Shown piece by piece: positions 36,986 to 60,101 of a stretch of DNA of 64,000 nucleotides. The position numbers were made by a program, and so were the translations under genes. Location of the stretch: positions 7,008,001-7,072,000 of the forward strand of contig CM119372.1 of assembly GCA_051294905.1 (NCBI GenBank), written 5' to 3'. Source of the stretch: Botryllus schlosseri. Its lineage: Eukaryota. Positions within the stretch are counted from its first letter, which is position 1, and each line of letters begins with the position of its first letter. The notes beneath the pieces are model-generated. The model ran no database searches. It was not told the DNA's origin and was given only the letters and a program-made list of their open reading frames with translations.

Positions 36986-39900
36986 ATGACGAAAACTGCG
37001 AACAAGCACTCAACTCGTGCAACGTTGAAAAACAAACATGGTCATCTGCCGGCGATTCTGAGCACGAATGCGAAGATTTTAGTTGTAAGCATATTGCTAT
37101 GCGGCAGTGCTGCTGCGATCGCCATCTTTTCGACGTCCAACTCGGCAAGAACTGTAAGCATCGATACAGATTCCGATTTTAGATGTGACATACCATCCCC
37201 TTCAGTCCAAGATGTATATATGTGCGCTTTGTCTCGGTGTAGTTTTGATGTTACTCTCTGTTCGGAACAATGTCCATTTGGATTCGCCGCCGACGAAACA
37301 GGCTGTCCGGCAGGATGTGCTTGTGCCGGGGAGGGCATTTTCCAAGGCGACATTCAGTTTAAAGAGTTTGAAGTACCAAACATGATGGAGGAGTATGGTT
37401 ACATATCTACAGATGAAGACTTTGCTACGTATGTAGGATCCACTGTCAACGCATACGAAGTCTATGACCAGCAAATCGTTGGAGGGAAATATGTTGTTAA
37501 ATTTGATTTGGCAAGTAATATCGTGGAAGATGAGGACATGGAGTACTTGATTATGCATTAGCCTCTATTGAAGCTTTTAGTTGCATAAAATTCGAAAAGA
37601 TCACGAGCGGACATATAGGTACGCATTTGAAATTTCAAAAGGAATCTCTGTGTGCATCCCCCGTAGGCCGACAATGGGTCGAAAACGGAATGGCGGTTAT
37701 CAAACTGCATCCATTATGCAGTCTACCTACGATAGGGCACGAAATTCTGCACGCACTTGGATTCTACCATGAACATTCGCGCCCAGACGGAGATGCCTAC
37801 GTAGAAATTTATAGGGCAAAGATTAGGAAGAATGAACAACACAATTTTAGAAAGAAATTAAGGTATGAGGTTCAAGATTTCAACTCGAAGTATGATGTCG
37901 GTTCACGTATGCATTACGACGGGTCTAGTTTTTCAATAAACCGCTATGAAGATGTTATAAAGTCTTTCACTGGCGAAGTGCTAGGGGGTAGCGATTTCTC
38001 TACTGAAGATATTTATGAATTGAACGCTTTATATAAGTGTCCTAAAGTCACTTCTGGTGCAGCATTACAATGGAGCGCGTGGTAGCGTTGGGACCCGGGA
38101 AATCCCGATCCCGGGATTTGAAGCAATCCCGATCCCCGGATTGGTCCCGATGAAATCCCGGGATTTGTGAACAGCATCTACCAAGGCTTATGTAGCGCCA
38201 TATCTCTTCTTTTGGTAATAAAGCAGTGTCACAAACTCGACTGATTGTCTAGAACAGTGGCCTCAAACACGCGGCCCGCCAGAACTGTTTTTGCGGCCCA
38301 CGTCGGCGTTTTGATTTTTCAAGCATTCGACAATATTAAACTCGAAAATTTCAGATTTCGGATTTGAGAACTTGAAATTTCATCCTGAAACCACTCCAAA
38401 AACCTGAATCGCTATCACACATCAAACGTCCACTAGCTGCTAAATTATAATTCGACAGCTTTTACGATGACACGATGCACTTGTCGTCTCGCATGGTTTC
38501 TAACTGTCTATATAACTCCCTATGTCGCCAAATTATGCCAAGCACAACAATATTTTTAAAAAATATTGAAAAATATGACTTTTTCGTGCCAACCGTGAAT
38601 ATTACATTAGTGCAGCGGTTCTCAACCGGGGGTCCGCGGACCCCTGGGGGTCCGTGAAGCATTCTCAGGGGGTCCGCGAAGCCTCAAAATATTTGATAAC
38701 CTAATTTGTATTTTTTTAATTCGGAAAATCACGAGGCAGTTTCGCTTCATTACTAGTAAAACTCCAAAGCTCACATCAACAGAATAACCATCTGAGATGA
38801 AGTATTCTACTATGCAGACTCATATAAATTACTAAATTGCCTATACTGATACAAACATTTTGCTGTTTAGACATGTTTGTGGGCGATTGTGGAAAAAACG
38901 TTGGATGAGTAAAGTCAATCACGATGACTTAATAATGTTTACAAAAATCCATTTTTCCATAATAACTTCAAGATGAGCTGCTATATGGAAATGACCAGGC
39001 TTGACGTTATACGTTCAATAAATAAATTTGTTTGTCAATTTTGGTGCCACATTTGTAGCGATCATACCCAACTGTGTTGTCGGAAGCGTTACGCGTTAAT
39101 TTTACATTCACCACCACCTATATTTGTGGAAATGTATTTTCGGCACCAGTTCATATCAAATCGAAGGAGCGGATTTTCAAGAAACGACCACGTAGTTCCA
39201 AGAAACGCAGATGCAGAATTCGCTTTGAAATAATAGAAGACAACAAATTTTTTACATGATTAAAGGGATGGTGCTAACCCTGAAAGGTTTAGGTTCGTGT
39301 AAACGCGAACCTTTTTGAAAGATTCTATGTGAACGTGAACTTGAATCTAAGACGCCCCCCGAGAGTACGGTTTATCACCCTATGGGGGCCCAAGACCAAC
39401 GTTTGGGGGGGGGGGGCGAAGTGCTGTTACGTGCCTGCTTATGCCTTAACGGTTTAGGCCAGACCGGACAATGTATTCAGCGTCAGACTATTGCTACATT
39501 GATATTGAGCAGAGTGTAAACATGTTTCTATACTTGCTACCGATATCACTATACAATCATCAAGTTATACAGTAGCCAACACCCCAATCGCACAGATTTG
39601 GTTTTTATGATACAATAAACATATCAAATCAAGAGGGATCCGATACTCCTGGTAGATTGTTTACGTTAGACGACGATGTATCAATTTCATTGATTGGTGT
39701 AATGACTAATGAGCATCATTCGCTGACTACCTACATGTGGTGTATTTCGTTCTTGATGTTGTGTGATTGCGGGTAAAGCTCACAGTCGGAGTCTGAGTCA
39801 CTAAATATCCACTAACGATAAACTGAGCGAACGTTTGTAACAAAGCAAGTAAAGTTTTTGAGATTGGCAAGGTGCATGCTTGTTCAGCGTTGAATTTTTT

Positions 39901-41740
39901 TATGCCGCCAGCGCCATGCATAGAGTGGTCCGAAGCTGAAATGCGGGGAATTTTAACCAAAGATGTTATGAAGATGTGAAAACATGTAATATATGAAAAA
40001 GGTTCAAAGTGCAGAACCCACCAAGGTTCGTTTGCGAACGTGAACCTATAAATTTTAGAGATCCACACACAGAACAAGAACGTGAACCTCACGATCACAC
40101 CATCCCTAATGAAATGTATGATCTTATTTTCAAGAAAAGTCATTTTGTTGCTGTTTATCACTAAGCCTACAGTTATCATTTGCACGAGACAGATGACAAT
40201 TGCACGATATTTGGGGTAAATTTGAACTAAAGTTTATTGGGGGTCCGCGAGGTCCGTGACAGTCCGAAAGGGGTCCGCGAAGACAAAAAGGTTGAGAACC
40301 ACTGCAATAGTGTATTACATTTTCACAATGTGTATGGAATGCCAATGTGCAAGGTCCGACAAAAAAAGGCGTACTGGGAAATACATATTACACTCCTATT
40401 TGATGCTGCTGCCCGCCGCGTCATCAAAAACTACGAAATTGGCCCGCGAGCAAATTGGAGTTTGGGACCCCTGATCTGAACGATTATACTCTTGATGCTC
40501 TTATGTTTTGCGTCGAATCAATATCACAAGGACTAAATGTTATTTGTGTAACTTGTATGTGTATTGTACAACTTTTCTAATCCCGGGGAATCCCGGGATT
40601 GAGGAGCGATAATCCCGGGAAATCACGATCCCGGGATTTCAAATTTGATCCCGAAGTCCCAACCCTAGTGCGTGGTCGAGTTGGAGCAGATGTGACGAAA
40701 CGTGCGGAATAGGTAAGAAGACTCGATATCGATACTGCGTATCCAAAGAAAACAAATATTCACAATATTGCAAAGGAGAGTCATTCGAAATATCGGACTG
40801 TGAAATTTCACGTTGTCCGGGAGGTGAGTGGAGTCAGTGGGGTCCAGTTGGTCCTTGTATAAAGATATGTACGAGCACTGGTTATAGTGCAGCAATGCAG
40901 TATAGATATTGTCTGAACGGATCAAACGCTTGCCCCGGATGGGAGACAGGCAAGGCAAAGCAATGTACCGTGCCGATTTGCAAGAAGAACGGACTGTGGG
41001 ATGATTGGAGCAACTGGTCTGCGTGTCAAGAGACTTGCGGGACCGGGGTGCAGTCTCGAGCGCAATTATGTAAAAATGAATTGAATTATGCAGTCGCTGC
41101 ATGCGGCACGTCGTCGCAGAAAGAAGTTGAAATGCGAAAATGCGATTTAGACACTTGTTTCGCTGACCAGAAAACGTTCGGGCCGTGGTCTCAATGTTCT
41201 GCTACTTGTGAAGGGTACAGAAAAAGGACGTGTACGGGCGGTAAATGTTATTCGTCTGTCGAGACCGAACCTTGCGGCCCGAGAAAATGCAACGAAGGTG
41301 CCATTTTCGCTACATCGAGAACGAACTTAGCCATAGACGACGTATGTAACGTCGCTTTTACAACGGAAAATTGGGTATTCGGAGACTTTAGTGGCGATGG
41401 CCGTCTGGATATTGTTTGCTTAAACGCTTACGGAGTGTACCAATTATCGTATGGTAGCAATTCCGGATTTAAAAAAGTGTGGTCCGGATCCTTCGATCGG
41501 TGCGGCGGCGGTGTTTTACTTCAGGGAGATTTTAACTTTGACGGGAAGAGCAATCTGGTTTGTAAGTCCAAGAAGGAGCGTCAACTCATAGTCCGATACG
41601 CAGGTGACAAACGCTTTCACGAGCCGCTGGTCGAAGGGTGGGAGTTCTGCGCCATATATTCTTCGCAGCTTACGACCGTGACGCGCAGTGGCAGAACCGC
41701 TCTTTTGTGTCAGGATAACAAACAATTTCTGGAGTTATGA
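36986..41740 (+). pseudogene. Intronless astacin (M12A) metalloprotease gene: hydrophobic N-terminus, antistasin-like module, astacin, 4 TSP1, 2 FG-GAP/VCBS-like repeats; disrupted
   Basis: CSEQCPFGFAADETGCPAGCAC; FQGDI; HEILHALGFYHEHSRPD and SRMHY Met-turn; WSAW|SSWSRCDETCG rejoins in frame across the 38083-40667 insertion; GDFSGDGRLD and GDFNFDGKSN; one frameshift at ~37535-37545. Confidence 0.9.
38083..40667. mobile_element. hAT-type MITE containing three further nested elements (~38255-40473, 38613-40304, ~39263-40108)
   Basis: Outer TIR TAGCGTTGGGAC / GTCCCAACCCTA with TSD GCGCGTGG / GTGCGTGG; 38613-40304 has CAGCGGTTCTCAACC / GGTTGAGAACCACTG with TSD CATTAGTG / CAATAGTG; the other two have matching TIRs but weak TSDs. 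Confidence 0.85.
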
Positions 41741-44095: not shown

Positions 44096-44648
44096 AATTG
44101 CAGTCTACCATAAAATAAGATAACTTGGTATTTTACAGATGATTTGAAGTTGAGAAAAGTAATACTGACATTATATACCTTTGAATAATACCTTATGGCT
44201 GGAAACTAGCTGGGAATATCAGTATTTGTTCACGAATTGCAACCCAACGGCGCTTCTTCAATGTACGATTCAAAACAAGCCGATGTCAATGGTGCAACCA
44301 ATACATGATTCCCATGAGCATGATAGACAGGTTGTGCGGGGTGAAATCGTTATGCATGTGGCCTTTATGGGACTGCATTCAAGTACGATTTTATTGCAAT
44401 ATATCATCTCTACACGGCCGTTTTCAACTGATAACGTCACAAAAGCTATAAACCGGTGACGTGGTCAACATTATATATCCAGTAGTAAGGAGAATTGCCC
44501 CGTGGATCTTTGGGGGGGTTCGAGGATGGAAGATCACGACGAAGATGACCAAAACTGTTCATAAAAGTGTTTTTATGTACTAAACCATCATTTGGGTCAC
44601 AAGCATCGAAGTTTCCTGACAATTTTTCAAATCTGAACAACCCTAGCG

Positions 44649-44842
44649 GACACTTGCGCATGCGACACTTGAGCATGTCACAATGGAGCATGCCACACTT
44701 GAGCATGCCACATTTGAGCATGTCACAATTGAGCATGTCACAATTGAGCATGTCACAATTGAGCATGCGACACTTGAGCGTGCCACATTTTAGCATGTGC
44801 CACATTTTAGCATGCGTCTCTTGAGCATGTGACACTTGAGCA
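44649..44842. repeat. 15-bp minisatellite (CACACTTGAGCATGC-like), same orientation as 43725-44095
   Basis: About 12 tandem units; explains the repetitive ORFs 44446-44835 and 44567-44824. Confidence 0.85.
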
Positions 44843-45244
44843 AGTTAGCTCGTGTTATTGATGGAATTTGTTGTCACGTGGTGGAAAAAACCACGCTGTT
44901 ATAAGCACCACGCTCGATTTCACGGCTAGCTTCGACTGCGGTTAGTGAAACATGACATCAGTGAAAATTGCAGTCTGTATATTTCAATCCTGCACATCAC
45001 AAGACTGTGCAGAGTGCATGAGCATACCCTATGCAGAATGAAGCTTGTTGTCGATGCGGGGACGCCACGATGCCGGATACAACGTTTGTTCTGAAAGTAG
45101 ATTCTAAATAAGTGATTTCTAACCCGGCTAACCTTCTTGCGGCTCTGATAGACCCCTGAATATGCCACTAAAATATTATAAACAGTTGCCGTTGTTTGCC
45201 AAAGGTCTCTTCTAATAAGTAGTATAGTAGATCGGTCGTGAGGT

Positions 45245-46080
45245 GGCTGGGGTTCTTATGGGCGGGGTGGCATGGTGCCGAGAAACCGGGGGTGGCATGG
45301 TGACCCTTATGTCTTATGGCGGGGGTGGCATGGTGCCATTGTGTCTTATGGCTGCGGTGGCATGGTTACCTTTTCGGGTATAGGCTGCGGCGGCATGGTG
45401 CCGTGAAACTCGTGGTGGCATGGTGACCCTTATAACTATAGGCTGCGGTCGCATGGTGCCACTGTGTCTTATGGGTGCGGTGACATGGTTACCTTTTTCG
45501 GGTATAGACGGCGGCGGCATGCTAACGTGAAACTCGTGGTGGCATGCCTATGTTTTTTGGTATACGTGCGGCGACATGCTAACGACGATAAATGTGTCTG
45601 TCATGTATTCTTACGCGATATGTGGTGACTCGCCATGTGTTCTTATGGGTGCGGTCGTGATGCGCACTTTCAGCCATCTCTCGCGTGGTGTTGAATAGTC
45701 ACCAACAATAACCGCACAGACGGAAACGTGGCTTGTTGTGAGGATTAAGCAGTGCGACCTATATTTCGAATGACCTGCGCGCTGAATTGTTTCACAGCCA
45801 ACCGCGGTGGTCGTGACTCGCCTTTTTTACTATAGGTGGTGACGGTGATTCGCCTGTCGTGTATTCTTACGGGATCTGTGGTGACTCGCCATGTGTTCTT
45901 ATGGGCGCGGTCGCATGCGGCTATTGCGTCTTATGGCGGGGGTGGTGAGCGGCTATTGATGCTAACACGAAACCCGGGGTGGCGAGCGGCACTTATTTCT
46001 TATGGCGGCGGGTCTTATTTCTTATGGGTGCGGTCGTGATTCGTACTTTCGGTATAGACTGCGGGCGGTATGTCGTACTT
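45245..46080. repeat. GC-rich subterminal repeats (CTTATGGx(G/T)GCGG..GCATGGT) of the palindromic element; mirror at ~58470-59305
   Basis: Imperfect ~27-30-bp units with higher-order repetition immediately inside both ends. Confidence 0.8.
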
Positions 46081-49000
46081 TCAGCAAAAAAGGTGTGAAA
46101 TAGTTTACCAAGTCTAGGAATCACTTGCAAGGTAATATTTTGGTATTTAGTTTACCACAGAGCCGGCGTAGACGGCGATTCGAATATCAACAATAACAAC
46201 GCTCACGAATTAACACTTCAAATAGCTGTGAAATAGTTTGCAAAACCCCGCGATCGCTGACAAGATAATGTCTCGGTCATAACCATCTTTCACGACTTGG
46301 TGTCATAACCATACCGATCGCTCACGCGGTGAAATTTTAGTAATCAGTTTGTCACAGAACTTGATATCGCTGGTAAGATTTAACAAGTAACGAATAACAG
46401 ACCGCGGTAACTTGAATAGCGACAAATTGTCACTTATTTCCGCTCTAACCCTAATCCTTTGTGAAGTGAACGCTTATTCAAAAGGGTGTGATATAATTTT
46501 AAAATCCAACGACCACTCACCGGATAATACTTCAGACATGGCAATTCCTCATACCCGCCCACAAGGTAATATTTCGGTAATTAGTTTGTCACAGAACCGT
46601 CGCAGGTGGTGATTGGAAAACCGACAATTTGTCACTCGCCCGCGATCGCTATATGTTTCACGCCTCCAGAATAGGGGCTGACTTTAGTTGCGTGATAAGA
46701 TCCATGAAAATATTCAATCAATGTGTTAGTTTATCAACTTGAAATGAAACTCACTACACAAATCAAGTCGATTCGTATCTGAATGTTCTAAATCGGTACA
46801 ACTCTAATCCTTTGACAAATCCCTTAACGCGTTTTTGTTGAATCGAACGTAACCCGAATATTACTGACGCCGACTTTCAGCCGCATCGAATTATTCGCAC
46901 ATTCCGCGCCACTGTTTTCACACTTATAGAATCAATACCAACTATAACTCTACAAGAATCAGGAATCACAAGTATGTGCATTACACAGTTATTGTCTTTA
47001 TTAACTTGAAATCAAACACTTAACAAAAACACGCAACTAATCATTTGGCAACTCTAGCATTACCAAAAAATTCCAGTATTGTTGATTGAAAATCCTTGAG
47101 TCATTATTATCAAAAATGTTATAGTACCGCATCGGAATCCATTCGCGGGATGTACTAAAGTTAAATCCAGATAATCCAAAATGAAATATTTTGACTTTGA
47201 CAAACATTACTACCAACTTTGATCCAGTCACATTTCAAGATCATACTTTGAAACAACCCTTGAAACTTACAACTCTATTCACGACTGAGTTTTCCGTTTA
47301 TCAAATAGAGTTTCAGTAAATACTATCGCGATATTTTAATGTGTTACTACACACAATAGAATCAATCAATGAAATAGCACCTGTTGTAAATATTTCTAAC
47401 TTGACAACCACTTGTGCATACCGCGATCGACTTGCGACGCGATGAGTTAAATCGGAATATTTCAATCTATTTGTCGAAACCTTGAACAAACTATCAGGTT
47501 ATTTTTTGTTGTAATCGAGTGAACGGAAATAGTATTACGTCTCAACATTTTAACATCTTCCCATAAACAAAAGAGTAAAATACAAAAAACCTTGTCAAGT
47601 CAATCCGTTTGTAACTCACCCAACCAAAGCAAAAAGTATCCTTATGAAAAGTAGACAAGACTACGCCAGTAATCACTGCAATCCAAAATCCATAACAAGC
47701 TCGGTTGTATTCATATCCCTACGACGCGTCTTTTGTTTTTCAACTGTAAAAGTCGTTACTATTTTGTAAGACAAAGTAATTACTGCTTGATATATTTTAT
47801 AAACCAAAGTAAATACTACTCGGTGTGTGGTTTGAGATTAACATATTACATTTGAGGATACCGGATTTGAATGCCTGACCAACGTAGTTGAGAATTCATT
47901 TCTTACAATCAAACGCCGGTTTTACATTGAAAGGTATCATACTGTAAACATAAGGATTGACACATTGATTTGATATATGAGATTTTGTAATGCTCGACCA
48001 CGACTTGATTATTAAATTATTCACGATAATTAGACCCGATGTTGTGGTAAAGGTTATTAGAAAATATCACTTTTGGCATCGAGTACCAGTCGAAGTGGGT
48101 GAACAATAACACCGAAAATGATAAATGCGTTTCGTGCTACTATTGACACAAGTTCATTTCTATCAGGTGAAATAAACGCCATCACAAAACTCAGAGCATG
48201 CAAAGGTCTTTATTGATATGAATTTCGATTTGTGTCTTATGATACCAGCAAACATTTTAGAAATATTATGATTCGTTAAACCAAAGTCGTAAGTCCGATT
48301 ATTAATTGATTGGAAACTTGATCACGTACCTCGATCATTACAGAAGATTATAACGCCATTGTCCGACAATCTTTTACAAAAGGATCGAAACCAAGTAACC
48401 CAAAGTCGTTGCCGTCGCATAAACAATTTGTACGACGTTTGATAATTGTACCCTATACGTTGGTGTACCAGAGATATTTGTAAAACACACTCTGGTAAAG
48501 AAATCGAAAGGATATCCTACACCTAAATCTGATAAAACCATTTTGCACTTTTTGTTCGTCAGTAGTATCCATTTGAATTTTCCCATTTCCTCTCGTCAAA
48601 GTAGATGTAATCATAGTCGCTAAAGAACTTACTTGGATGTGTTTGAATTCTAGACATAGTTCTGATTTACTCGACTCAAGACCCAAGAACAACCGTAGTT
48701 AACAACCGTGCACACATATCCAAAATATCGCACGCTCCGCTATTCCTAAAGTACAAACACCCGATACAAAATATCACTTGTTGCGGCATCATCTTCACAA
48801 TATCACCATTTTGTTTGTGTCAATTAGTTACTTTGTATGTTATCCCACAACTCTTACAAAAGTACGAAGGATATTAACATCGCACTAAGTAATTAACTTT
48901 ACTCGATATTCTCGCATTACGAAACTAAAGAATGGTTGGTTAGACTCTACAAACTGTTTCGATATCACAAGAACTTTATTGTCTGAATGGGTGTTCATGT

Positions 49001-49831
49001 ATCTTAATAATCAAATAGTTCAACACAGAACTAGTACGAACAGAAACATCAGAGTTGTTTACACAAAAGTTTGTATGTGTACAGTATGCGAATACCATGT
49101 GTAAGTCCAGCACAATTGCAGTATCCATTCGAGTTTAGTCAACACAAATTTATTACAACGGAGCCACGTAAACTTTCGTGAAAGAAAAGCATACTCACTT
49201 CCAGAGGGTTATGTCAACATCATAGCAGTTCCCCAACAACAAAGTACATATGTTTCTAGCCACGGTCCTTACATCTTTCACATAGATCAATCTACTTTGC
49301 TAACGAAAAGCGCTGAGTCATCACATGATCGCTCTCACAACAAAACAGCTAGTAGATATTATCATTCAAAATATTCCTAACCCTTTACACACCAGTGACA
49401 AATCATACAACGAATATGCTTTGCGGGTCGAATTGTTGTTCAGTGTCAAGTCTACCTGTTGAAACGTACATTAAACAGCACAATCCAATTAAAACCACGA
49501 ATCTATTTTCATTTCGTCACATACAGAAAAACAAATTTTCTTTCTCCAACACATACTTGTAACCAATCGCTTTCATTAAACACACAACACCATAAAAGTA
49601 TTTACTTTCTACAACATAGACATTCCGATGTAGTCAAGAAATATTTTTATTAATCAAAATCATCGATTTCTGTTCACGGCGTTAGTGTGTGCATGTCATA
49701 CCTGTGGGCCCCGTATTAAAATGGACACGACACGACTGACTGTAAGGAGATAGAAGTCTATCACATCGATTTACATGTGGCCTTCGCTACGGTTTCAAAA
49801 AACGAATCATGTCTTTTGCATTGATCTAGAC

Positions 49832-50285
49832 CAGTGGTTCCCAACGTGGGCGATATCGCCCCCCAGGGGGCGATTTGGCGAACTAGGGGGGGCGAAAATG
49901 ACGAAGGGGGCGACAGGGGGGCGAAAATGGACAAAGGGGGCGACGGGGGGCGAAAATAGCGAAGGGGGCGATAGGGGGGCGATGACGCGTAAAAACGGCT
50001 GACCTTTTTTTTTTTTTTTTTTTTTTAGTCATCCACCTAGCAATGCGGAGCGAAAAAACGTTATTTTCAGCTCCGAGCGGAGAAAGATGACCTTTTTTAT
50101 CCACCTAGCAATGCGGAGCGAAAAAACCAGCTCTGAGCGGAGAAAGATGACCTTTTTTTTTTTCAGTCAACCCGCCGGTGATTACAGTCTGTATGCCCAA
50201 TTATCGGTGCACAAAATTTGGGGGGCGATGATCGGTGTTGACCTTGAAAAGGGGGCGATGGGTCGAAAAAGGTTGGGAACCACTG
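49832..50285. mobile_element. hAT-type MITE present in the left palindrome arm only
   Basis: TIRs CAGTGGTTCCCAAC / GTTGGGAACCACTG; perfect TSD ATCTAGAC; empty site GTCTAGAT at 54726-54733 in the right arm. Confidence 0.93.
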
Positions 50286-50619
50286 ATCTAGACCGAGCAA
50301 GTTAGTTAATGGCCATGATTGTGTTTGTCATATGCGAATGATAGGGTTACTGTCAAATCTACATACAACAATCTTCTGACGATCATAATAGCAATTTCAT
50401 TTTCCGCCCCTTCATAATTGTACAACTCGGTAACTACGTTTAACAAGACCAATCACACTACCGGCGTTGAACACAAGATACCTACCCAAGTAAAAATATC
50501 ATTCTGGTTTGGACAACTGACGTTTACCTGTGTAAAATTATCATTTTAACTTAGAGGTCCACCGTTACCTAACTAAAATACCATTGTCCTTTGGAGATTT
50601 ATCGTTTACCCAGTGTAAC

Positions 50620-51270
50620 AATCCCCTTTTCGCTTGGAAATACATTTTTGGCCTGACTAACAAACCCCTTTTCACTTGGAAATATATTTTTTCTCTGGGT
50701 AACAAACCTTTTTCACTTGGAAATATATTTTTTCTCTTGGTAATAAACCTTTTTCACTCGGAAATATATTTTTTCTCTTGGTAATAAACCTTTTTCACTC
50801 AGAAATATATTTTTTCTCTGAGTAACAAACCTTTTTCACTTGGAAATATATTTTTTCTCTTGGTAATAAACCTTTTTCACTCGGAAATATATTTTTTCTC
50901 TTGGTAATAAACCTTTTTCACTCGGAAATATATGTTTTCTCTGAGTAACAAACCTTTTTCACTTGGAAATATATTTTTTCTCTGAGTAACAAACCTTTTT
51001 TACTTGGGAATATATTTTTTCTCTGGTTAACAAACCTTTTTCGCTTGGAAATATATTTTTTCTCTGGGTAACAAACCTTTTTCACTTGGAAATATATTTT
51101 TTCCCCGGGTAACAAACCTTTTTCCCTGAGCAACAAACCTTTTTCACTTGCAAATATATTTTTTCCTGGGTAACAAACCTTTTTCACTTTGAAATATATT
51201 TTTTTTCCTGGGTAACAAACCTTTTCGCTTGGAAATATATTTTTCCCTGGGTTACAAACCTTTTTCACTT
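50620..51270. repeat. ~40-41-bp AT-rich minisatellite (left arm)
   Basis: Unit AACAAACCTTTTTCACTTGGAAATATATTTTTTCTCTGGGT; 82 bp longer than its mirror. Confidence 0.92.
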
Positions 51271-53837
51271 GGTGATCCGTCGTTTACCTGAGTAAAAATA
51301 TCATTTTCCTTTGGGGATCTGGCGTTTACCCAGTGTAACAATACATTTTCTCTTGGTCATCTAGCTTTTCCTAGAGTAACAAAACCATTTTCATTTTGAA
51401 ATCTGACAAACACACCTGACAATTTGATATTTTTGTATATTGTTACAACGGATAGCGACAAAATATACACAAAAACAACTCCAATACATTTGTGTAATCG
51501 CATATTCACTTGTGCTGATGCAACCCATCAAAATCATCGGTTAACCACATACAATATCCTCTTGTACACAGAAATGCATGTTTCGGAAAATTGGACAATA
51601 GACTTCGATAGTTCTGTGATGTCCAGGTTCACGCTTTGGATTTTCCAGAGTCAAAATGTCTGAATAAAACACCTCCTCCACGATGGTTGGTATGTGGATA
51701 ACGGTATTCGGAAAACGGTTGGATTTATGTCACCCATCGCGATAACAACTCCAGGTCGAGTTTTCCTCCGCATGTTTACTATATTGTGTCTTTAATGGTC
51801 ATGTATGTCTCGACATTCAGTTTGAAATCGGAAACCCTGATAAAGTATGTAACCGGATCCGGATATCAATTCTGAATCGATAAACCAATGAACAATATTC
51901 AAAGTAAACATGTTACACCCTGTGTTTCCACGAAAAAATACCATCCATACATACGTCGCGCTTGTTTGCCCACACCAGTATACGCGTAAATGGAGGTGTG
52001 TGACATTGCATGCAATGTGTTGGTATACAAACATCGATCCACAGACATTATCATAGCCGGTAGTTTTGATGTAGATCGAATGTCATCACACCCGATAACA
52101 ATGTCATACCAATAAGCCACATTGCAACGACTCTGAGTCAATCTGAAGCAGGACATACAGACACACAAACATGGAACCGTAACATGGGTTATTCGCACGA
52201 CAGTGAAAGTGAACTGTACAGTACATACCAATATTGTGATCACAGTCAAATATGTGAACCGTGCACAATCATATACCCAGGTTTTTGTTGGATCTGTACT
52301 AAACCGATAAATCGATACATTTCTTTTCCTTTGACGTCAACAATACAATCATCATTCTAATGTATCGCTCGAATGTGAGGTTCATCTGGTGTAAAATCCA
52401 TGTCAAATAACACCAAAGTGTGCTTTCCGTGTTTTATTATTTCCACCGTCGCTTCTTGTCTGTGTCGTAACACTATGGTGCGGGGAGTTGAAAAACGGTG
52501 GATTGTGAAACGGATTGACATGACCAACAGAATCGACGTCAATAGACTTGTGACGATGCCGTTTCAAAATGTTACCGATCTCTTGTGGTGATGACCGTTT
52601 CGAAATGTTACCAGACGAACTGGACCCTTACGATGATGTGTTTTATGATTGCGTGTGAAATCGCGAGGTAGTGTTCTATTGTGGTGTACGATTGCAGTCT
52701 TCATTCCACAGAAACATACCTTATTGGATCACAGTATCAGTCCGAGATTTGCACGATATTTATCTGGAGTCGTTATGTGGGAGTAGCGACATCGATGCAT
52801 CGTGACTGAAAGACTGATCGCAATCATTTCGAGCACCCATACTTCGATAGTTCACATTGGTCAAACGCTGCAGCAGAAAACTTCGGTGTCGACAACGCGA
52901 CGGATATTGACCGATGTCTCCAATTGATCTGGGACGTCTGTCCGGAGATAGGGTCATGACTAATACCGCGGACTCAGAGTCGTTGCAATGTGGCTTATTG
53001 GTATGACATTGTTATCGGGTGTGATGACATTCGATCTACATCAAAACTACCGGCTATGATAATGTCTGTGGATCGATGTTTGTATACCAACACATTGCAT
53101 GCAATGTCACACACCTCCATTTACGCGTATACTGATGTGGGCAAACAAGCGCGACGTATGTATGGATGGTATTTTTTCGTGGAAACACAGGGTGTAACAT
53201 GTTTACTTTGAATATTGTTCATTGGTTTATCGATTCAGAATTGATATCCGGATCCGGTTACATACTTTATCATTTCCGATTTCAAACTGAATGTCGAGAC
53301 ATACATGACCAATAAAGACACAATATAGTAAACATGCGGAGGAAAACTCGACCTGGAGTTGTTATCGCGATGGGTGACATAAATCCAACCGTTTTCCGAA
53401 TACCGTTATCCACATACCAACCATCGTGGAGGAGGTGTTTTATTCAGACATTTTGACTCTGGAAAATCCAAAGCGTGAACCAGGACATCACAGAACTATC
53501 GAAGTCCATTGTCCAATTTTCCGAAACATGCATTTCTGTGTACAAGAGGATATTGTATGTGGTTAACCGATGATTTTGATGGGTTGCATCAGCACAAGTG
53601 AATATGCGATTACACAAATGTATTGGAGTTGTTTTTTGTGTATATTTTGTCGCTATCCGTTGTAACAATATACAAAAATATCAAATTGTCAGGTGTGTTT
53701 GTCAGATTTCAAAATGAAAATGGTTTTGTTACTCTAGGAAAAGCTAGATGACCAAGAGAAAATGTATTGTTACACTGGGTAAACGCCAGATCCCCAAAGG
53801 AAAATGATATTTTTACTCAGGTAAACGACGGATCACC

Positions 53838-54405
53838 AAGTGAAAAAGGTTTGTAACCCAGGGAAAAATATATTTCCAAGCGAAAAGGTTTGTTACCCAG
53901 GAAAAAAAATATATTTCAAAGTGAAAAAGGTTTGTTACCCAGGAAAAAATATATTTGCAAGTGAAAAAGGTTTGTTGCTCAGGGAAAAAGGTTTGTTACC
54001 CGGGGAAAAAATATATTTCCAAGTGAAAAAGGTTTGTTACCCAGAGAAAAAATATATTTCCAAGCGAAAAAGGTTTGTTAACCAGAGAAAAAATATATTC
54101 CCAAGTAAAAAAGGTTTGTTACTCAGAGAAAAAATATATTTCCAAGTGAAAAAGGTTTGTTACTCAGAGAAAAAATATATTTCCGAGTGAAAAAGGTTTA
54201 TTACCAAGAGAAAAAATATATTTCCAAGTGAAAAAGGTTTGTTACTCAGAGAAAAAATATATTTCTGAGTGAAAAAGGTTTATTACCAAGAGAAAAAATA
54301 TATTTCCAAGTGAAAAAGGTTTGTTACCCAGAGAAAAAATATATTTCCAAGTGAAAAGGGGTTTGTTAGTCAGGCCAAAAATGTATTTCCAAGCGAAAAG
54401 GGGAT
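53838..54405. repeat. ~40-41-bp minisatellite (right arm, reverse complement of 50620-51270)
   Basis: Unit CCAAGTGAAAAAGGTTTGTTACCCAGAGAAAAAATATATTT. Confidence 0.92.
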
Positions 54406-57400
54406 TGTTACACTGGGTAAACGATAAATCTCCAAAGGACAATGGTATTTTAGTTAGGTAACGGTGGACCTCTAAGTTAAAATGATAATTTTACACAGGT
54501 AAACGTCAGTTGTCCAAACCAGAATGATATTTTTACTTGGGTAGGTATCTTGTGTTCAACGCCGGTAGTGTGATTGGTCTTGTTAAACGTAGTTACCGAG
54601 TTGTACAATTATGAAGGGGCGGAAAATGAAATTGCTATTATGATCGTCAGAAGATTGTTGTATGTAGATTTGACAGTAACCCTATATATGACAAACACAA
54701 TCATGGCCATTAACTAACTTGCTCGGTCTAGATCAATGCAAAAGACATGATTCGTTTTTTGAAACCGTAGCGAAGGCCACATGTAAATCGATGTGATAGA
54801 CTTCTATCTCCTTACAGTCAGTCGTGTCGTGTCCATTTTAATACGGGGCCCACAGGTATGACATGCACACACTAACGCCGTGAACAGAAATCGATGATTT
54901 TGATTAATAAAAATATTTCTTGACTACATCGGAATGTCTATGTTGTAGAAAGTAAATACTTTTATGGTGTTGTGTGTTTAATGAAAGCGATTGGTTACAA
55001 GTATGTGTTGGAGAAAGAAAATTTATTTTTCTGTATGTGACGAAATGAAAATAGATTCGTGGTTTTAATTGGATTGTGCTGTTTAATGTACGTTTCAACA
55101 GGTAGACTTGACACTGAACAACAATTCGACCCGCAAAGCATATTCGTTGTATGATTTGTCACTGGTGTGTAAAGGGTTAGGAATATTTTGAATGATAATA
55201 TCTACTAGCTGTTTTGTTGTGAGAGCGATCATGTGATGACTCAGCGCTTTTCGTTAGCAAAGTAGATTGATCTATGTGAAAGATGTAAGGACCGTGGCTA
55301 GAAACATATGTACTTTGTTGTTGGGGAACTGCTATGATGTTGACATAACCCTCTGGAAGTGAGTATGCTTTTCTTTCACGAAAGTTTACGTGGCTCCGTT
55401 GTAATAAATTTGTGTTGACTAAACTCGAATGGATACTGCAATTGTGCTGGACTTACACATGGTATTCGCATACTGTACACATACAAACTTTTGTGTAAAC
55501 AACTCTGGTGTTTCTGTTCGTACTAGTTCTGTGTTGAACTATTTGATTATTAAGATACATGAACACCCATTCAGACAATAAAGTTCTTGTGATATCGAAA
55601 CAGTTTGTAGAGTCTAACCAACCATTCTTTAGTTTCGTAATGCGAGAATATCGAGTAAAGTTAATTACTTAGTGCGATGTTAATATCCTTCGTACTTTTG
55701 TAAGAGTTGTGGGATAACATACAAAGTAACTAATTGACACAAACAAAATGGTGATATTGTGAAGATGATGCCGCAACAAGTGATATTTTGTATCGGGTGT
55801 TTGTACTTTAGGAATAGCGGAGTGTGCGATATTTTGGATATGTGTGCACGGTTGTTAACTACGGTTGTTCTTGGGTCTTGAGTCGAGTAAATCAGAACTA
55901 TGTCTAGAATTCAAACACATCCAAGTAAGTTCTTTAGCGACTATGATTACATCTACTTTGACGAGAGGAAATGGGAAAATTCAAATGGATACTACTGACG
56001 AACAAAAAGTGCAAAATGGTTTTATCAGATTTAGGTGTAGGATATCCTTTCGATTTCTTTACCAGAGTGTGTTTTACAAATATCTCTAGTACACCAACGT
56101 ATAGGGTACAATTATCAAACGTCGTACAAATTGTTTATGCGACGGCAACGACTTTGGGTTACTTGGTTTCGATCCTTTTGTAAAAGATTGTCGGACAATG
56201 GCGTTATAATCTTCTGTAATGATCGAGGTACGTGATCAAGTTTCCAATCAATTAATAATCGGACATACGACTTTGGTTTAACGAATCATAATATTTCTAA
56301 AATGTTTGCTGGTATCATAAGACACAAATCGAAATTCATATCAATAAAGACCTTTGCATGCTCTGAGTTTTGTGATGGCGTTTATTTCACCTGATAGAAA
56401 TGAACTTGTGTCAATAGTAGCACGAAACGCATTTATCATTTTCGGTGTTATTGTTCACCCACTTCGACTGGTACTCGATGCCAAAAGTGATATTTTCTAA
56501 TAACCTTTACCACAACATCGGGTCTAATTATCGTGAATAATTTAATAATCAAGTCGTGGTCGAGCATTACAAAATCTCATATATCAAATCAATGTGTCAA
56601 TCCTTATGTTTACAGTATGATACCTTTCAATGTAAAACCGGCGTTTGATTGTAAGAAATGAATTCTCAACTACGTTGGTCAGGCATTCAAATCCGGTATC
56701 CTCAAATGTAATATGTTAATCTCAAACCACACACCGAGTAGTATTTACTTTGGTTTATAAAATATATCAAGCAGTAATTACTTTGTCTTACAAAATAGTA
56801 ACGACTTTTACAGTTGAAAAACAAAAGACGCGTCGTAGGGATATGAATACAACCGAGCTTGTTATGGATTTTGGGTTGCAGTGATTACTGGCGTAGTCTT
56901 GTCTACTTTTCATAAGGATACTTTTTGCTTTGGTTGGGTAAGTTACAAACGGATTGACTTGACAAGGTTTTTTGTATTTTACTCTTTTGTTTATGGGAAG
57001 ATGTTAAAATGTTGAGACGTAATACTATTTCCGTTCACTCGATTACAACAAAAAATAACCTGATAGTTTGTTCAAGGTTTCGACAAATAGATTGAAATAT
57101 TCCGATTTAACTCATCGCGTCGCAAGTCGATCGCGGTATGCACAAGTGGTTGTCAAGTTAGAAATATTTACAACAGGTGCTATTTCATTGATTGATTCTA
57201 TTGTGTGTAGTAACACATTAAAATATCGCGATAGTATTTACTGAAACTCTATTTGATAAACGGAAAACTCAGTCGTGAATAGAGTTGTAAGTTTCAAGGG
57301 TTGTTTCAAAGTATGATCTTGAAATGTGACTGGATCAAAGTTGGTAGTCATGTTTGTCAAAGTCAAAATATTTCATTTTGGATTATCTGGATTTAACTTT

Positions 57401-60101
57401 AGTACATCCCGCGAATGGATTCCGATGCGGTACTATAACATTTTTGATAATAATGACTCAAGGATTTTCAATCAACAATACTGGAATTTTTTGGTAATGC
57501 TAGAGTTGCCAAATGATTAGTTGCGTGTTTTTGTTAAGTGTTTGATTTCAAGTTAATAAAGACAATAACTGTGTAATGCACATACTTGTGATTCCTGATT
57601 CTTGTAGAGTTATTTGATTCTATAAGTGTGAAAACAGTGGCGCGGAATGTGCGAATAATTCGATGCGGCTGAAAGTCGGCGTCAGTAATATTCGGGTTAC
57701 GTTCGATTCAACAAAAACGCGTTAAGGGATTTGTCAAAGGATTAGAGTTGTACCGATTTAGAACATTCAGATACGAATCGACTTGATTTGTGTAGTGAGT
57801 TTCATTTCAAGTTGATAAACTAACACATTGATTGAATATTTTCATGGATCTTATCACGCAACTAAAGTCAGCCCCTATTCTGGAGGCGTGAAACATATAG
57901 CGATCGCGGGCGAGTGACAAATTGTCGGTTTTCCAATCACCACCTGCGACGGTTCTGTGACAAACTAATTACCGAAATATTACCTTGTGGGCGGGTATGA
58001 GGAATTGCCATGTCTGAAGTATTATCCGGTGAGTGGTCGTTGGATTTTAAAATTATATCACACCCTTTTGAATAAGCGTTCACTTCACAAAGGATTAGGG
58101 TTAGAGCGGAAATAAGTGACAATTTGTCGCTATTCAAGTTACCGCGGTCTGTTATTCGTTACTTGTTAAATCTTACCAGCGATATCAAGTTCTGTGACAA
58201 ACTGATTACTAAAATTTCACCGCGTGAGCGATCGGTATGGTTATGACACCAAGTCGTGAAAGATGGTTATGACCGAGACATTATCTTGTCAGCGATCGCG
58301 GGGTTTTGCAAACTATTTCACAGCTATTTGAAGTGTTAATTCGTGAGCGTTGTTATTGTTGATATTCGAATCGCCGTCTACGCCGGCTCTGTGGTAAACT
58401 AAATACCAAAATATTACCTTGCAAGTGATTCCTAGACTTGGTAAACTATTTCACACCTTTTTTGCTGAAAGTACGACATACCGCCCGCAGTCTATACCGA
58501 AAGTACGAATCACGACCGCACCCATAAGAAATAAGACCCGCCGCCATAAGAAATAAGTGCCGCTCGCCACCCCGGGTTTCGTGTTAGCATCAATAGCCGC
58601 TCACCACCCCCGCCATAAGACGCAATAGCCGCATGCGACCGCGCCCATAAGAACACATGGCGAGTCACCACAGATCCCGTAAGAATACACGACAGGCGAA
58701 TCACCGTCACCACCTATAGTAAAAAAGGCGAGTCACGACCACCGCGGTTGGCTGTGAAACAATTCAGCGCGCAGGTCATTCGAAATATAGGTCGCACTGC
58801 TTAATCCTCACAACAAGCCACGTTTCCGTCTGTGCGGTTATTGTTGGTGACTATTCAACACCACGCGAGAGATGGCTGAAAGTGCGCATCACGACCGCAC
58901 CCATAAGAACACATGGCGAGTCACCACATATCGCGTAAGAATACATGACAGACACATTTATCGTCGTTAGCATGTCGCCGCACGTATACCAAAAAACATA
59001 GGCATGCCACCACGAGTTTCACGTTAGCATGCCGCCGCCGTCTATACCCGAAAAAGGTAACCATGTCACCGCACCCATAAGACACAGTGGCACCATGCGA
59101 CCGCAGCCTATAGTTATAAGGGTCACCATGCCACCACGAGTTTCACGGCACCATGCCGCCGCAGCCTATACCCGAAAAGGTAACCATGCCACCGTAGCCA
59201 TAAGACACAATGGCACCATGCCACCCCCGCCATAAGACATAAGGGTCACCATGCCACCCCCGGTTTCTCGGCACCATGCCACCCCGCCCATAAGAACCCC
59301 AGCCACCTCACGACCGATCTACTATACTACTCTAATAGCGGAGAAAGAGAATTTTTGCAGAATAGCGTCGAAACCATGGATATATACTAGGGCTGTTCAA
59401 AAATAACTTTTTTTTCCCGATTCAAGCCGGTCACCTCATAAATCGTTTGGTTGCAGTAGAAAACCTTGCTCACCAAATTTCACTCGATTCCAACCAGTGA
59501 AGGCCTCCGCAGATCCAATTAAAATTTTTAATTTATTATGGAAAATTGAAAAAAAAATTTCCAAATATTCTGCCAACCCCATGAAATTGTGGAGCTGTCG
59601 TCAAAGACGTTGCAAAACAAATTTGAGTCAATTCCGACCAGTAGGACCGGAGTTACGTGAGTTTTTCGATGATAATCCGCGGATTATCCTTGATCGGTGG
59701 ATAATCCTCGATTTATCAACGAAAAACTCACATGCTTCGCATTGTTTTGAATAATGACATTGAATGAATAAATAGTATTTTTTGGTAAATTAACCCTCAC
59801 CCTCTCCTGGCCGAATTCTAACACATCCAATTCGTAGCGTTTGTCAACAATGTAATTCACTGTTGTCTATTTAGAAATAGGCTTATAATTCAAACTCTTG
59901 GCTCGATCCGCCAAGTTTTTTTGCTTTTTATTTGACCCACTTGGGAAAATAATTGTCCACCCCCGATATGTAGTATCGAGTTTCAATTCCCGAGTCATAT
60001 GGGCGTCCGATTGCAAATACTATTTTGAGTAGTCTCGACACCAATCTTGGATAGAATCTAACTATAAACTCAAATCTCTGCCAGTTTCTCTTCATATACA
60101 C

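What the first reader, a model, noticed from the sequence alone, without database searches (positions are those of the whole stretch)
45218..59331. 14-kb palindromic, gene-less Polinton/Maverick-like element: candidate copy-back defective genome
Seen: AGTAGT..ACTACT termini, perfect 6-bp TSD CTAATA, inverted arms of 6922 and 6361 bp covering 94% of the element, an 831-bp spacer, and no ORF over ~120 aa. Established: Polintons have AGT-repeat termini, 6-bp TSDs from a retroviral-like integrase, TIRs usually of hundreds of bp to ~1.5 kb, lengths around 15-20 kb, and encode pPolB, integrase, ATPase, protease and capsid proteins; they are thought to replicate by protein-primed strand displacement through a panhandle. 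Inference: one end was copied back to replace the whole coding core, like copy-back defective-interfering viral genomes. The clean TSD implies integration in trans as a unit, and the near-normal length may reflect packaging constraints. This would be a satellite/parasite of an endogenous virus-like element and a potential source of long dsRNA or cruciforms. I cannot confirm it is undescribed.
Basis: partly seen in the sequence, partly recalled or inferred. Interest (0 to 1): 0.92.

Follow-up and report, generated by a model that had tools for sequence, protein, structure and literature searches.

The report
Gene-less palindromic Polinton derivative, abundant family
This 14-kb hairpin-shaped insertion is one copy of a very abundant, gene-less offshoot of the virus-like Polinton/Maverick transposons in an animal genome, apparently moved by the enzymes of intact Polintons nearby, rather than a one-off replication accident.

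Summary
Window 45218-59331 is a 14,114-bp element with AGTAGT...ACTACT ends, a perfect CTAATA duplication, inverted arms of 6,922 and 6,361 bp, and an 831-bp loop. The arms differ by 13 substitutions and 7 indels.

It has no recognisable gene. It is not an assembly artefact: one arm alone carries a 454-bp MITE, and 3 of 3 paralogous uninterrupted sites show a single hexamer.

It is not a unique copy-back event.
- Its end motif occurs 1085 times forward and 1076 times reverse in the genome, against 1 and 3 for the control.
- A 26-mer from the loop occurs 423 times, against 0 for the control.
- 7 of 10 other copies fetched have the same gene-less palindrome, each with its own 6-bp duplication.

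A coding Polinton in the same genome (rve+chromo integrase, polymerase B, capsid-like gene) has the same first 21 bases and ends 92% identical over 300 bp. At least 73 stop-free integrase copies exist.

The two arms of each copy evolve in lock-step, including mirrored 214-709-bp indels.

Best reading: a non-autonomous, snap-back-shaped Polinton derivative moved in trans. Origin by copy-back is plausible but unproven.

This scan had already met the family on other DNA of this genome (e1-7786796, e1-7786340).

The parts
45212..45217 (.). Left copy of the 6-bp target-site duplication CTAATA
   Evidence: Three of 3 paralogues of the host repeat have a single hexamer (CTGAAA) at this point.
45218..52139 (+). 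Left inverted arm, 6,922 bp
   Evidence: It differs from the right arm by 13 substitutions and 7 indels.
45218..45238 (+). Terminal 21 bases beginning AGTAGT. They are identical to the terminus of the coding Polinton at G000:C5:16599612.
   Evidence: The degenerate form of this motif has 1085 forward and 1076 reverse genomic matches, against control 1 and 3.
45260..45546 (+). Subterminal repeat array (123-bp period, 32-bp sub-period) carrying 5 exact GGCATGGTG motifs. It is mirrored at 59003-59289. This is a candidate cis-acting binding array.
   Evidence: 10 matches in the window, all in the two ends; 0.26 expected. All 11 elements examined, the coding ones included, have 4-6 motifs per end.
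49832..50285 (.). 454-bp hAT-like MITE (ends CAGTGGTTCCCAAC / GTTGGGAACCACTG) with an 8-bp duplication ATCTAGAC (49824-49831 and 50286-50293). It is present in the left arm only and is not part of the family.
   Evidence: It is absent at this point from all other copies. RNA reads pile up here with varied flanks.
50615..51393 (+). 41/42-bp tandem arrays of the inner left arm. They are mirrored at 53712-54411. Two of the arm differences are 41-bp unit gains or losses.
52140..52970 (.). Unpaired 831-bp loop (spacer), shared by the family
   Evidence: It is 82-92% identical in 4 of the 10 other copies fetched, in either orientation, and partly matched in 2 more. All 40 scored genomic hits are at 90-100% identity. 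A loop 26-mer gives 198+225 hits against control 0.
52971..59331 (-). Right inverted arm, 6,361 bp, ending ...ACTACT
59332..59337 (.). Right copy of the target-site duplication CTAATA
44868..45217 (.). Left flank. It is part of another interspersed repeat into which the element inserted. The repeat continues for about 56 bp to the right of the element (59338-59387).
   Evidence: 23 further loci match 1-346, 46-346 or 1-344 of 350 at 83-95% identity; right-flank homology follows directly in 3 of 3 paralogues.

Best explanation
The element is one copy of a high-copy family of non-autonomous Polinton/Maverick derivatives.

What it keeps from a Polinton is only the cis-acting ends: the AGTAGT terminus and a subterminal array of GGCATGGTG motifs of about 300 bp. 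Some relatives also keep up to 2 kb of one end of the parent. The rest is a non-coding body built as a near-perfect snap-back palindrome, two arms of about 6.5 kb around a loop of about 0.83 kb.

Shown here:
- It sits in the chromosome as a precise insertion with a 6-bp duplication.
- Coding Polintons with near-identical ends and many stop-free integrase genes coexist in the same genome.
- The palindrome, its loop and its arm/loop junctions are shared by many copies, so the architecture was inherited from one ancestral palindrome.

Inferred:
- The retroviral-type integrase of the coding elements recognises the shared ends and inserts the palindrome in trans. Their protein-primed polymerase replicates it.
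- During strand-displacement replication, or in a single-stranded 'racket' intermediate as Kapitonov and Jurka proposed (recalled), the single strand folds into a 6.5-kb hairpin. Each cycle then pairs one arm with the other. Repair or re-synthesis in that stem keeps the arms identical, large indels included.
- The founding event was a fold-back (snap-back or copy-back) duplication of one end of a defective element.
- A length close to that of the helper may be kept because the DNA travels in helper capsids.
For: (1) Precise insertion. The CTAATA duplication is perfect. Three of 3 paralogous host-repeat copies have one hexamer and no element.

(2) Family.
- The end pattern has 1085 forward and 1076 reverse matches, against control 1 and 3.
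- Of the first 100 places listed (contig C1 up to 25.7 Mb), 68 form 34 +/- pairs with identical 20-mers.
- 22 of those 34 pairs span 12.8-15.5 kb. The outer two members of one triple nest come to about 14.0 and 13.1 kb once the inner copies are subtracted (my count).
- Ten of the 11 elements examined have perfect 6-bp duplications, all different.

(3) Inherited palindrome.
- 7 of 10 fetched copies are gene-less palindromes, with arm identity of 98.1-99.9% over 4.8-6.4 kb.
- The loop is shared. Alignments break at exactly the same arm/loop junctions in 3 copies whose loop is inverted, and run through the loop in a fourth (C10_082).
- Inner arm plus loop plus inverted arm recurs at all 39 other scored loci.
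- The loop 26-mer has 423 matches against control 0. Of the 11 matches lying in the listed part of C1, 8 fall inside an end pair, and 5 of those 8 fall within 100 bp of its midpoint.

(4) Link to coding Polintons.
- G000:C5:16599612-16615097 is 15,486 bp with a 916-bp TIR and the duplication CTCGTT. It encodes rve+chromo integrase (Pfam E 1e-15 and 5e-9).
- It also has polymerase B ORFs that are 70-80% identical in protein to those of a second copy. That copy's ORF has homologues down to E 2e-150, 36 of the 120 listed carrying PF03175.
- A 432-aa ORF has nearest Atlas clusters carrying PF21738, the double-jelly-roll domain (a lead only).
- The ends of this coding element match the window element at 92% over 300 bp, with the first 21 bases identical.
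- In copy C2_220 both arms match the coding element at 90.7% over 1.4 kb. That match reaches beyond the coding element's TIR into a subterminal OB-fold-like gene.
- 73 of 113 scored integrase hits are full-length, stop-free and 94-100% identical.

(5) Lock-step arms.
- Left and right arms are sisters in 8 of 8 copies with a matching duplication. Different copies are 82-99% alike in the same 1-kb block.
- Indels of 214, 381 and 709 bp are mirrored in both arms.
- The same premature stop sits in both arm copies of the OB-fold pseudogene.
- The one element without a matching duplication (C6_047) has arms from two subfamilies, 93.6% alike.
Against: - No trans-mobilisation, replication intermediate or virion was observed. 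All of that is inference from anatomy.
- The inner 4.7 kb or so of the arms and the loop have no detectable counterpart in the two coding elements examined. The body may not be Polinton-derived at all.
- Only 2 coding copies were read in full. In the full-gene-set copy the polymerase is spread over three frames, and the other copy lacks integrase and capsid genes.
- Of 5 integrase hits on the listed part of C1, only 1 lies inside an end pair that fits my pattern. Many coding elements therefore have somewhat different ends.
- Arm identity could be kept by ordinary chromosomal gene conversion between close inverted repeats.
- Counts rest on short patterns and on capped scoring (40 to 113 candidates scored per search). 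They are rough lower bounds.
Confidence: 0.85

Rival explanations
1. The arms stay identical through ordinary intrachromosomal gene conversion after insertion, as in other close inverted repeats. No hairpin replication stage is involved. The family identity is as in the best explanation and only the homogenising mechanism differs.
For: - Arm identity of 98.1-99.9% in 8 of 8 intact copies fits either mechanism.
- The window copy has accumulated private changes in both arms: about 8 derived states on the left, 4 on the right and 1 unclear.
- A one-arm MITE is also present. Identity therefore decays in place and is not being restored quickly here.
Against: - Indels of 214-709 bp are mirrored exactly in both arms. 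That needs long conversion tracts across heterology.
- The chimeric copy C6_047 shows no long identical tracts between its 93.6%-alike arms.
- Lineages 17-18% apart in the aligned block still have arms 98% or more alike.
Confidence: 0.35
2. One reading: this copy is a de novo copy-back (defective-interfering) product of one replication accident, integrated once.
For: The architecture fits a snap-back genome (definition in PMC13506859). The duplication is clean.
Against: - The same arms, loop and junctions occur in many other copies at other loci.
- The nearest relatives found are only 96.7% identical (L010, 1.8 kb) and 98.9% identical (C5_269, 1 kb). The palindrome is older than this insertion.
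Confidence: 0.03
3. A foldback transposon of another superfamily (FB/TU-like, or a MITE-like derivative of a cut-and-paste element) that merely resembles Polinton ends.
For: Long inverted arms with tandem arrays recall foldback elements.
Against: - The ends are 92% identical over 300 bp to a coding Polinton, with the first 21 bases identical.
- One copy shares 1.4 kb beyond the TIR.
- The duplication is 6 bp in 10 of 11 elements. FB and TU elements have 9 and 8 bp (recalled).
- No transposase remnant is present in the element.
Confidence: 0.04
4. A fold-back assembly artefact or a local chromosomal inverted duplication.
For: Palindromes of this size can arise from chimeric long reads. No single read or contig spanning the whole element was seen.
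Against: - The arms differ by 13 substitutions, 7 indels and a one-arm MITE.
- The ends are precise and carry a duplication.
- The paralogous sites are empty.
- Hundreds of copies share the architecture.
- Short-read contigs from 2 other samples cover all 30 depth bins.
Confidence: 0.01

Closest known systems
Autonomous Polinton/Maverick elements (Kapitonov and Jurka 2006, recalled, paper not held; Barreat and Katzourakis 2021, PMC8097293, passages read)
   Same: The (AGT)2...(ACT)2 end motif, a perfect 6-bp target-site duplication and terminal inverted repeats. The length of 14.1 kb falls inside the reported 12.7-24.6 kb range. The ends are 92% identical to a coding Polinton of the same genome.
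   Different: It has no polymerase, integrase, ATPase, protease or capsid gene. Its inverted repeats are 6.4-6.9 kb, against a reported 46-1,447 bp (mean 402 bp), and they fill 94% of the element.
Snap-back / copy-back defective viral genomes (review PMC13506859, passages). Defective or undersized adenovirus genomes that rearrange towards wild-type length (PMC4189039, passage). Adenovirus incomplete-particle genomes with inverted duplications (Daniell 1976, recalled, not held).
   Same: A near-full-length palindrome built from one end of a linear genome, with coding capacity lost and presumed dependence on a helper. The length is close to that of the helper.
   Different: Those are transient products seen in infected cells. 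This one is a germline-integrated, heritable lineage with hundreds of copies and subfamilies. Its inner arms have no match in the helper examined.
Foldback transposons
   Same: Very long inverted arms with internal tandem arrays, a short loop, no coding capacity in most copies, and high copy number.
   Different: The duplication is 6 bp and the ends are Polinton ends. Most of each arm is unique sequence rather than tandem repeats. The element is 13-15 kb long.
Tlr1 elements of Tetrahymena, 'sometimes [viewed] as non-autonomous polintons' (PMC5499653, passage)
   Same: Polinton-related elements with long inverted ends that lack part of the Polinton gene set.
   Different: Tlr1 elements still encode many proteins. 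This family encodes none.

Membership tests
Polinton/Maverick (as a non-autonomous derivative) | 6-bp target-site duplication | tested here: met
   CTAATA flanks the element on both sides, and there is a single hexamer in 3 of 3 paralogous sites. Ten of the 11 family elements have perfect, different hexamers.
Polinton/Maverick (as a non-autonomous derivative) | Conserved end motif 5'-(AGT)2 ... (ACT)2-3' (PMC8097293) | tested here: met
Polinton/Maverick (as a non-autonomous derivative) | Terminal inverted repeats | tested here: met
   Present, but 6.4-6.9 kb long. That is more than 4 times the largest vertebrate value of 1,447 bp quoted in PMC8097293.
Polinton/Maverick (autonomous member) | Encodes protein-primed polymerase B and a retroviral-type integrase ('by definition', abstract of PMC5499653, search listing) | tested here: not met
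   tblastn with the proteins of two coding copies finds only the translated terminal repeats in the window element. None of its 18 ORFs reaches a Pfam cut-off. The feature is met in sister elements that share the ends.
Polinton/Maverick (as a non-autonomous derivative) | Ends homologous to those of a coding element in the same genome | tested here: met
   92% over 300 bp, with the first 21 bases identical to G000:C5:16599612. The GGCATGGTG array is found in all 11 elements.
Snap-back defective viral genome | Reverse-complementary duplication over almost the whole length | tested here: met
   The arms make up 94% of the element.
Snap-back defective viral genome | Sequence derived from one end of the parental genome | tested here: inconclusive
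   The outer 0.6-2.1 kb matches the coding element, asymmetrically in copy C2_220. The inner arms and loop have no counterpart in the 2 coding copies read.
Snap-back defective viral genome | Replicates only with a helper, and interferes with it | not testable with these tools
Foldback (FB/TU-type) transposons | Target-site duplication of 9 bp (FB) or 8 bp (TU); values recalled | tested here: not met
   The duplication is 6 bp.
Foldback (FB/TU-type) transposons | Arms composed largely of short tandem repeats | tested here: not met
   Tandem arrays cover only about 0.3 kb at the tip and about 0.8 kb near the loop of each arm of roughly 6.5 kb.

The most novel reading that the evidence does not exclude
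This family may be a germline-fixed 'snap-back defective-interfering' lineage of an endogenous polintovirus. On this reading it is replicated by the helper's protein-primed polymerase through a full-length hairpin intermediate that re-copies one arm from the other each cycle. It would be kept near 13-15 kb because it is packaged in helper capsids. It now outnumbers its helpers several-fold. That would be the first natural satellite-like parasite of a Polinton, and a natural reporter of how Polintons replicate and whether they form virions.
Probability: 0.3. Interest if true: 0.85.

Novelty: new variant of a known kind. Interest (0 to 1): 0.68.

Why it matters
How Polintons/Mavericks replicate, and whether they travel as virions, has not been shown experimentally. 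Non-autonomous derivatives are hardly described.
- The phrases 'non-autonomous/nonautonomous Polinton/Maverick' occur in 1 paper of the library searched, and there they refer to Tlr1.
- In the one search that combined 'foldback', three ascidian genus names, 'Polinton' and 'Maverick', only 1 of the 25 papers listed holds Polinton or Maverick, and it is not a genome paper. No listed ascidian genome paper does.

This is a family of hundreds of 13-15-kb gene-less palindromes sharing ends with many apparently intact helpers. It offers a natural experiment on four points:
- which cis sequences suffice for mobilisation;
- whether length is constrained as in packaged genomes;
- whether arms are re-synchronised at each cycle, which would be a signature of a hairpin or panhandle stage;
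- what such long palindromes do to genome stability and small-RNA production.

At roughly a thousand end pairs of about 14 kb each, the family may make up a few percent of a 495-Mb genome.

Tried and rejected
The closest end relatives, the 24.6-kb C13 element and further coding copies were therefore not read in full.
- Reads:
  - No RNA holder was listed.
  - One single-cell RNA run, about 3% of it read, gave a depth of 0-5 on the arms. Depth was high only on the MITE, whose reads run into many different flanks.
  - No joint at the exact empty site appeared in the 3 contig runs. The single 14.7-kb skip (44644 to 59380, side 26) does not sit at the element's ends.
  - None of this bears on expression or polymorphism.
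- Search for a non-palindromic parent: the loop and inner arm have no match in the two coding copies. C11_032 carries one arm-like region next to a polymerase module. Whether it is a parent or a recombinant cannot be told.
- The mirrored indels show no transposon ends or duplications. They cannot be called mirrored TE insertions.
- Internal copies of the end motif, which would be expected if the palindrome arose from nested elements using alternative ends, were not found. GGCATGGTG occurs only at the outer ends.
- Rfam and Pfam gave nothing in the element.
- Papers not held: Kapitonov and Jurka 2006, Daniell 1976, Daniell and Mullenbach 1978.
- The host clade was not tested. I saw only animal-type genes nearby (astacin, TSP1).
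Full report
**Observation**

The sequence reads ctctt-CTAATA-AGTAGTATAGTAG at 45212-45230, and CTACTATACTACT-CTAATA-gcgg at 59319-59337. The repeat finder reports collinear inverted blocks from 45218 to 52139 against 52971 to 59331.

A global alignment of the two arms (6,922 and 6,361 bp) gives 13 substitutions and 7 indels of 8, 462, 7, 41, 41, 1 and 3 bp. The loop is 831 bp.

The longest stop-to-stop frame inside the element is 145 aa and the next is 121 aa. None of the 18 internal frames of 80 aa or more reaches a Pfam cut-off, and Rfam finds nothing.

**Real DNA and a precise insertion**

The 462-bp arm difference is a 454-bp MITE at 49832-50285. It has inverted ends (CAGTGGTTCCCAAC / GTTGGGAACCACTG) and an 8-bp duplication, ATCTAGAC. 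The right arm keeps the unoccupied site.

When the 13 substitutions are compared with other copies, about 8 are derived in the left arm and 4 in the right, with 1 unclear. Both arms have therefore drifted independently. A fold-back read artefact would not produce that.

The left flank is itself part of an interspersed repeat. Twenty-three other loci match 1-346, 46-346 or 1-344 of the 350 flank bases at 83-95% identity. In all 3 paralogues I looked at, left-flank homology is followed directly by right-flank homology, with a single hexamer (CTGAAA) where the window has CTAATA, the element, then CTAATA again.

**A family, not an accident**

The first 300 bp match many places in the genome. One search returned 62 matches, with 40 of 2,023 candidates scored.

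A degenerate 20-base end pattern has 1085 forward and 1076 reverse matches, against 1 and 3 for the reversed control. I tallied the first 100 places listed (contig C1 up to 25.7 Mb) by hand:
- 34 adjacent +/- pairs have identical 20-mers.
- 3 pairs have unlike 20-mers.
- 26 ends are single.
- 22 of the 34 pairs span 12.8-15.5 kb.
- One locus (C1:16768420-16810257) is a triple nest. The two outer members come to about 14.0 and 13.1 kb once the inner copies are subtracted.
- Only 2 of the 34 pairs span less than 10 kb.

I fetched ten other end pairs in full.
- Seven are gene-less palindromes. Their arm identity is 98.1-99.9% over 4.8-6.4 kb.
- One (C6_047) has unlike flanks.
- Two carry long ORFs.
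- Ten of the 11 elements, the window copy included, have perfect 6-bp duplications, all different: CTAATA, GTAACT, AACAAC, GGTGTG, TTTGTG, CTCGTT, CACCTG, CCCGGC, CATGAA and AACGTC.

**The palindrome is inherited**

- The window's loop is found at 82-92% identity in 4 of the 10 other copies, and in part in 2 more, in either orientation.
- In three copies whose loop lies inverted relative to the window, plus-strand alignments stop and restart at exactly the window's arm/loop junctions. In a fourth (C10_082) the alignment runs through the loop.
- A query of 600 bp of inner arm plus 600 bp of loop matched 40 scored loci over their full length. For 39 of them, the window's own among them, the arm part was found again inverted about 300 bp beyond the end of the match; at the fortieth (C13:21686113) no inverted arm was listed (40 of 1,445 candidates scored).
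- A loop 26-mer, allowing up to 2 mismatches, occurs 198+225 times against a control of 0.
- Of its 11 occurrences in the listed part of C1, 8 lie inside an end pair. Five of those 8 lie within 100 bp of the pair's midpoint.

At least about 420 elements therefore carry this loop. Subfamilies with diverged centres, such as C8_257, C2_233 and C1_403, add to that number.

**Link to coding Polintons**

G000:C5:16599612-16615097 is 15,486 bp long, with a 916-bp TIR at 96.6% identity and the duplication CTCGTT. It has a row of long ORFs.
- One ORF is an rve integrase with a chromodomain.
- The polymerase region is 70-80% identical in protein to that of a second coding copy, C11_032.
- That copy's 668-aa ORF scores 25.6 bits on PF03175, just under the 25.8 cut-off. 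It has 283 homologues at E of 1e-5 or better, the best at 2e-150. Thirty-six of the 120 listed carry PF03175, and several are named DNA-directed DNA polymerase.
- A 432-aa ORF has nearest Atlas clusters with PF21738, the double-jelly-roll domain, in 14-30% of members (score 0.98; a lead only).

The ends of this coding element match the window element at 92% over 300 bp, and the first 21 bases are identical. All 11 elements carry 4-6 exact GGCATGGTG motifs in each terminal 450 bp. In the window the motif occurs 10 times, all in the two ends, against 0.26 expected.

In copy C2_220 both arms match the coding element at 90.7% over 1.4 kb. That match runs beyond the coding element's TIR through a subterminal 217-aa ORF. 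The ORF has OB-fold/RPA-like Atlas neighbours (a lead only). Both arm copies carry the same premature stop.

The genome holds many apparently intact helpers. Of 113 scored integrase hits (1,021 candidates), 73 are full-length, stop-free and 94-100% identical. Twelve further hits are at 65-66% and eight at 53%.

The end motif and the 6-bp duplication are those reported for vertebrate Mavericks. That study gives TIRs of 46-1,447 bp and element sizes of 12.7-24.6 kb (PMC8097293, passages).

**Limits of the link**

- Beyond the outer 0.6-2.1 kb, the arms and the loop have no counterpart in the full-gene-set coding copy. tblastn finds no decayed genes there.
- C11_032 is collinear with the polymerase side of that copy. 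In place of the ATPase-integrase-capsid side it carries the 41-bp arrays and one arm-like region, in single copy. It may be a relative of the progenitor or a recombinant. I cannot tell which.
- Of the 5 integrase hits in the listed part of C1, only 1 lies inside a pattern-matching end pair. Many coding elements therefore have somewhat different ends.

**Lock-step arms**

In a 1-kb block present in most copies, the left and right arms are sisters in 8 of 8 copies that have a matching duplication. Different copies are 82-99% alike in that block.

The one element without a matching duplication, C6_047 (CACGTA against CCCGTG), has a left arm 99.7% like C8_257 and a right arm nearest C10_082 at about 97%. 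Its two arms are 93.6% alike. It is a chimera that did not travel as a unit.

Lineage-specific indels of 214 bp (C2_220) and 381 bp (C10_082) are identical in both arms at mirrored positions. One of 709 bp (C9_001) is also mirrored. Differences confined to one arm are the window's MITE and a 2.3-kb duplication in C9_001.

Along the arm the copies are mosaics. Blocks at 1-600, 800-2000 and 3600-4600 are widely shared, and other segments are private to one or two copies.

**How it most likely works**

Shown: the insertion is precise and has a 6-bp duplication. The ends are shared with coding elements. The palindrome is inherited. The arms evolve in concert.

Inferred:
- The helpers' integrase and protein-primed polymerase act in trans on the shared ends.
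- A single strand displaced during replication, or excised as in the 'racket' model of Kapitonov and Jurka (recalled), folds into a 6.5-kb hairpin. Each cycle then pairs one arm with the other, and repair or re-synthesis copies changes across, large indels included.

Ordinary gene conversion in the chromosome is the rival for this last step (0.35).

The founding event was probably a fold-back duplication of a defective element. By the usage of PMC13506859 the shape is 'snap-back'. Undersized helper-dependent adenovirus genomes rearrange towards wild-type length (PMC4189039, passage). That is a precedent for length-driven duplication in a protein-primed virus. The clustering at 12.8-15.5 kb, beside coding copies of 15.5 and 17.3 kb, fits this but does not prove it.

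**Reads**

Twenty runs held part of the 3-kb probe, and none is on record as RNA.

I laid four runs on the element.
- Contigs from two other samples of the same organism label cover all 30 depth bins.
- Depth on the element is far above that of the one depth bin made up mostly of the left flank (44756-45293).
- No record spans the whole element.
- The raw RNA run gave a depth of 0-5 on the arms.
- No joint lies at the exact empty site.

These results decide nothing about expression or polymorphism.

**Literature**

- The phrases for non-autonomous Polintons or Mavericks occur in 1 paper of the library, and there they refer to Tlr1.
- Searches combining Polinton/Maverick with palindromic, foldback and tunicate terms found no description of such a family.
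- A 2019 review of giant transposons does not mention one in the passages I read.
- Repbase entries for non-autonomous Polintons may exist (recalled). I could not check them.
- This scan had already noted the family elsewhere in this genome (e1-7786796, e1-7786340).

**Verdict**

This is a real, precisely inserted copy of an abundant, non-autonomous, snap-back-shaped Polinton derivative: a new variant of a known kind. It is interesting mainly at the family level.

Noticed in passing
window 49832-50285: A 454-bp hAT-like MITE with an 8-bp duplication ATCTAGAC sits in the left arm only. In the raw RNA run, reads pile up on it (depth up to about 100) and run on into many different flanks. Copies elsewhere are therefore transcribed within other RNAs.
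   Followed up: partly
window 44868-45217 and 59338-59387: The palindrome inserted into another interspersed repeat. At least 23 other copies of that repeat exist at 83-95% identity. I did not classify the repeat.
   Followed up: partly
L042:4106-4756 (G000:C5, next to the right TIR of the coding Polinton): A 217-aa ORF reads outward next to the TIR. Its Atlas neighbours are OB-fold/RPA-like single-strand-binding families (score 0.94-0.95, a lead only; no Pfam hit). A single-strand-binding protein would suit strand-displacement replication. Pseudogene copies with the same stop sit in both arms of the palindromic copy at G000:C2:22035310-22048761.
   Followed up: partly
L042:3024-3734 versus the polymerase ORFs (G000:C5 and L049): A 237-aa ORF between the OB-fold gene and the polymerase resembles the N-terminal part of the polymerase ORF (47-50% over 50-77 aa).
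   Followed up: partly
G000:C6:4775491-4787713 (L037+L038): A chimeric element. Its two arms come from different subfamilies (93.6% alike) and its flanking hexamers differ (CACGTA / CCCGTG). It is probably a recombination or deletion between two insertions.
   Followed up: partly
G000:C1:16768420-16810257: Three elements nested one inside another, judged from three concentric pairs of identical end 20-mers.
   Followed up: no
L031:7402-8196 (centre of the copy at G000:C8:25725015): A 265-aa ORF without a Pfam hit lies in the 3.6-kb centre of another palindromic copy. It is probably a foreign insertion.
   Followed up: no
window 22515-29449: A hAT transposase remnant (dimerisation domain, 22515-23588) lies next to a Ty3/gypsy-type pol frame (RT, RNase H, integrase zinc finger, 26999-28654).
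   Followed up: no
window 36980-41740: Host gene exons on the plus strand carry astacin protease, antistasin, TSP1 and FG-GAP domains. They lie 3.5 kb upstream of the element.
   Followed up: no
runs X7, X8, X12, X13, X16: Runs labelled as four other organisms hold about a third of the sampled words of the flank-plus-end probe. The family, or the flank repeat, may occur nearly unchanged in other species.
   Followed up: no
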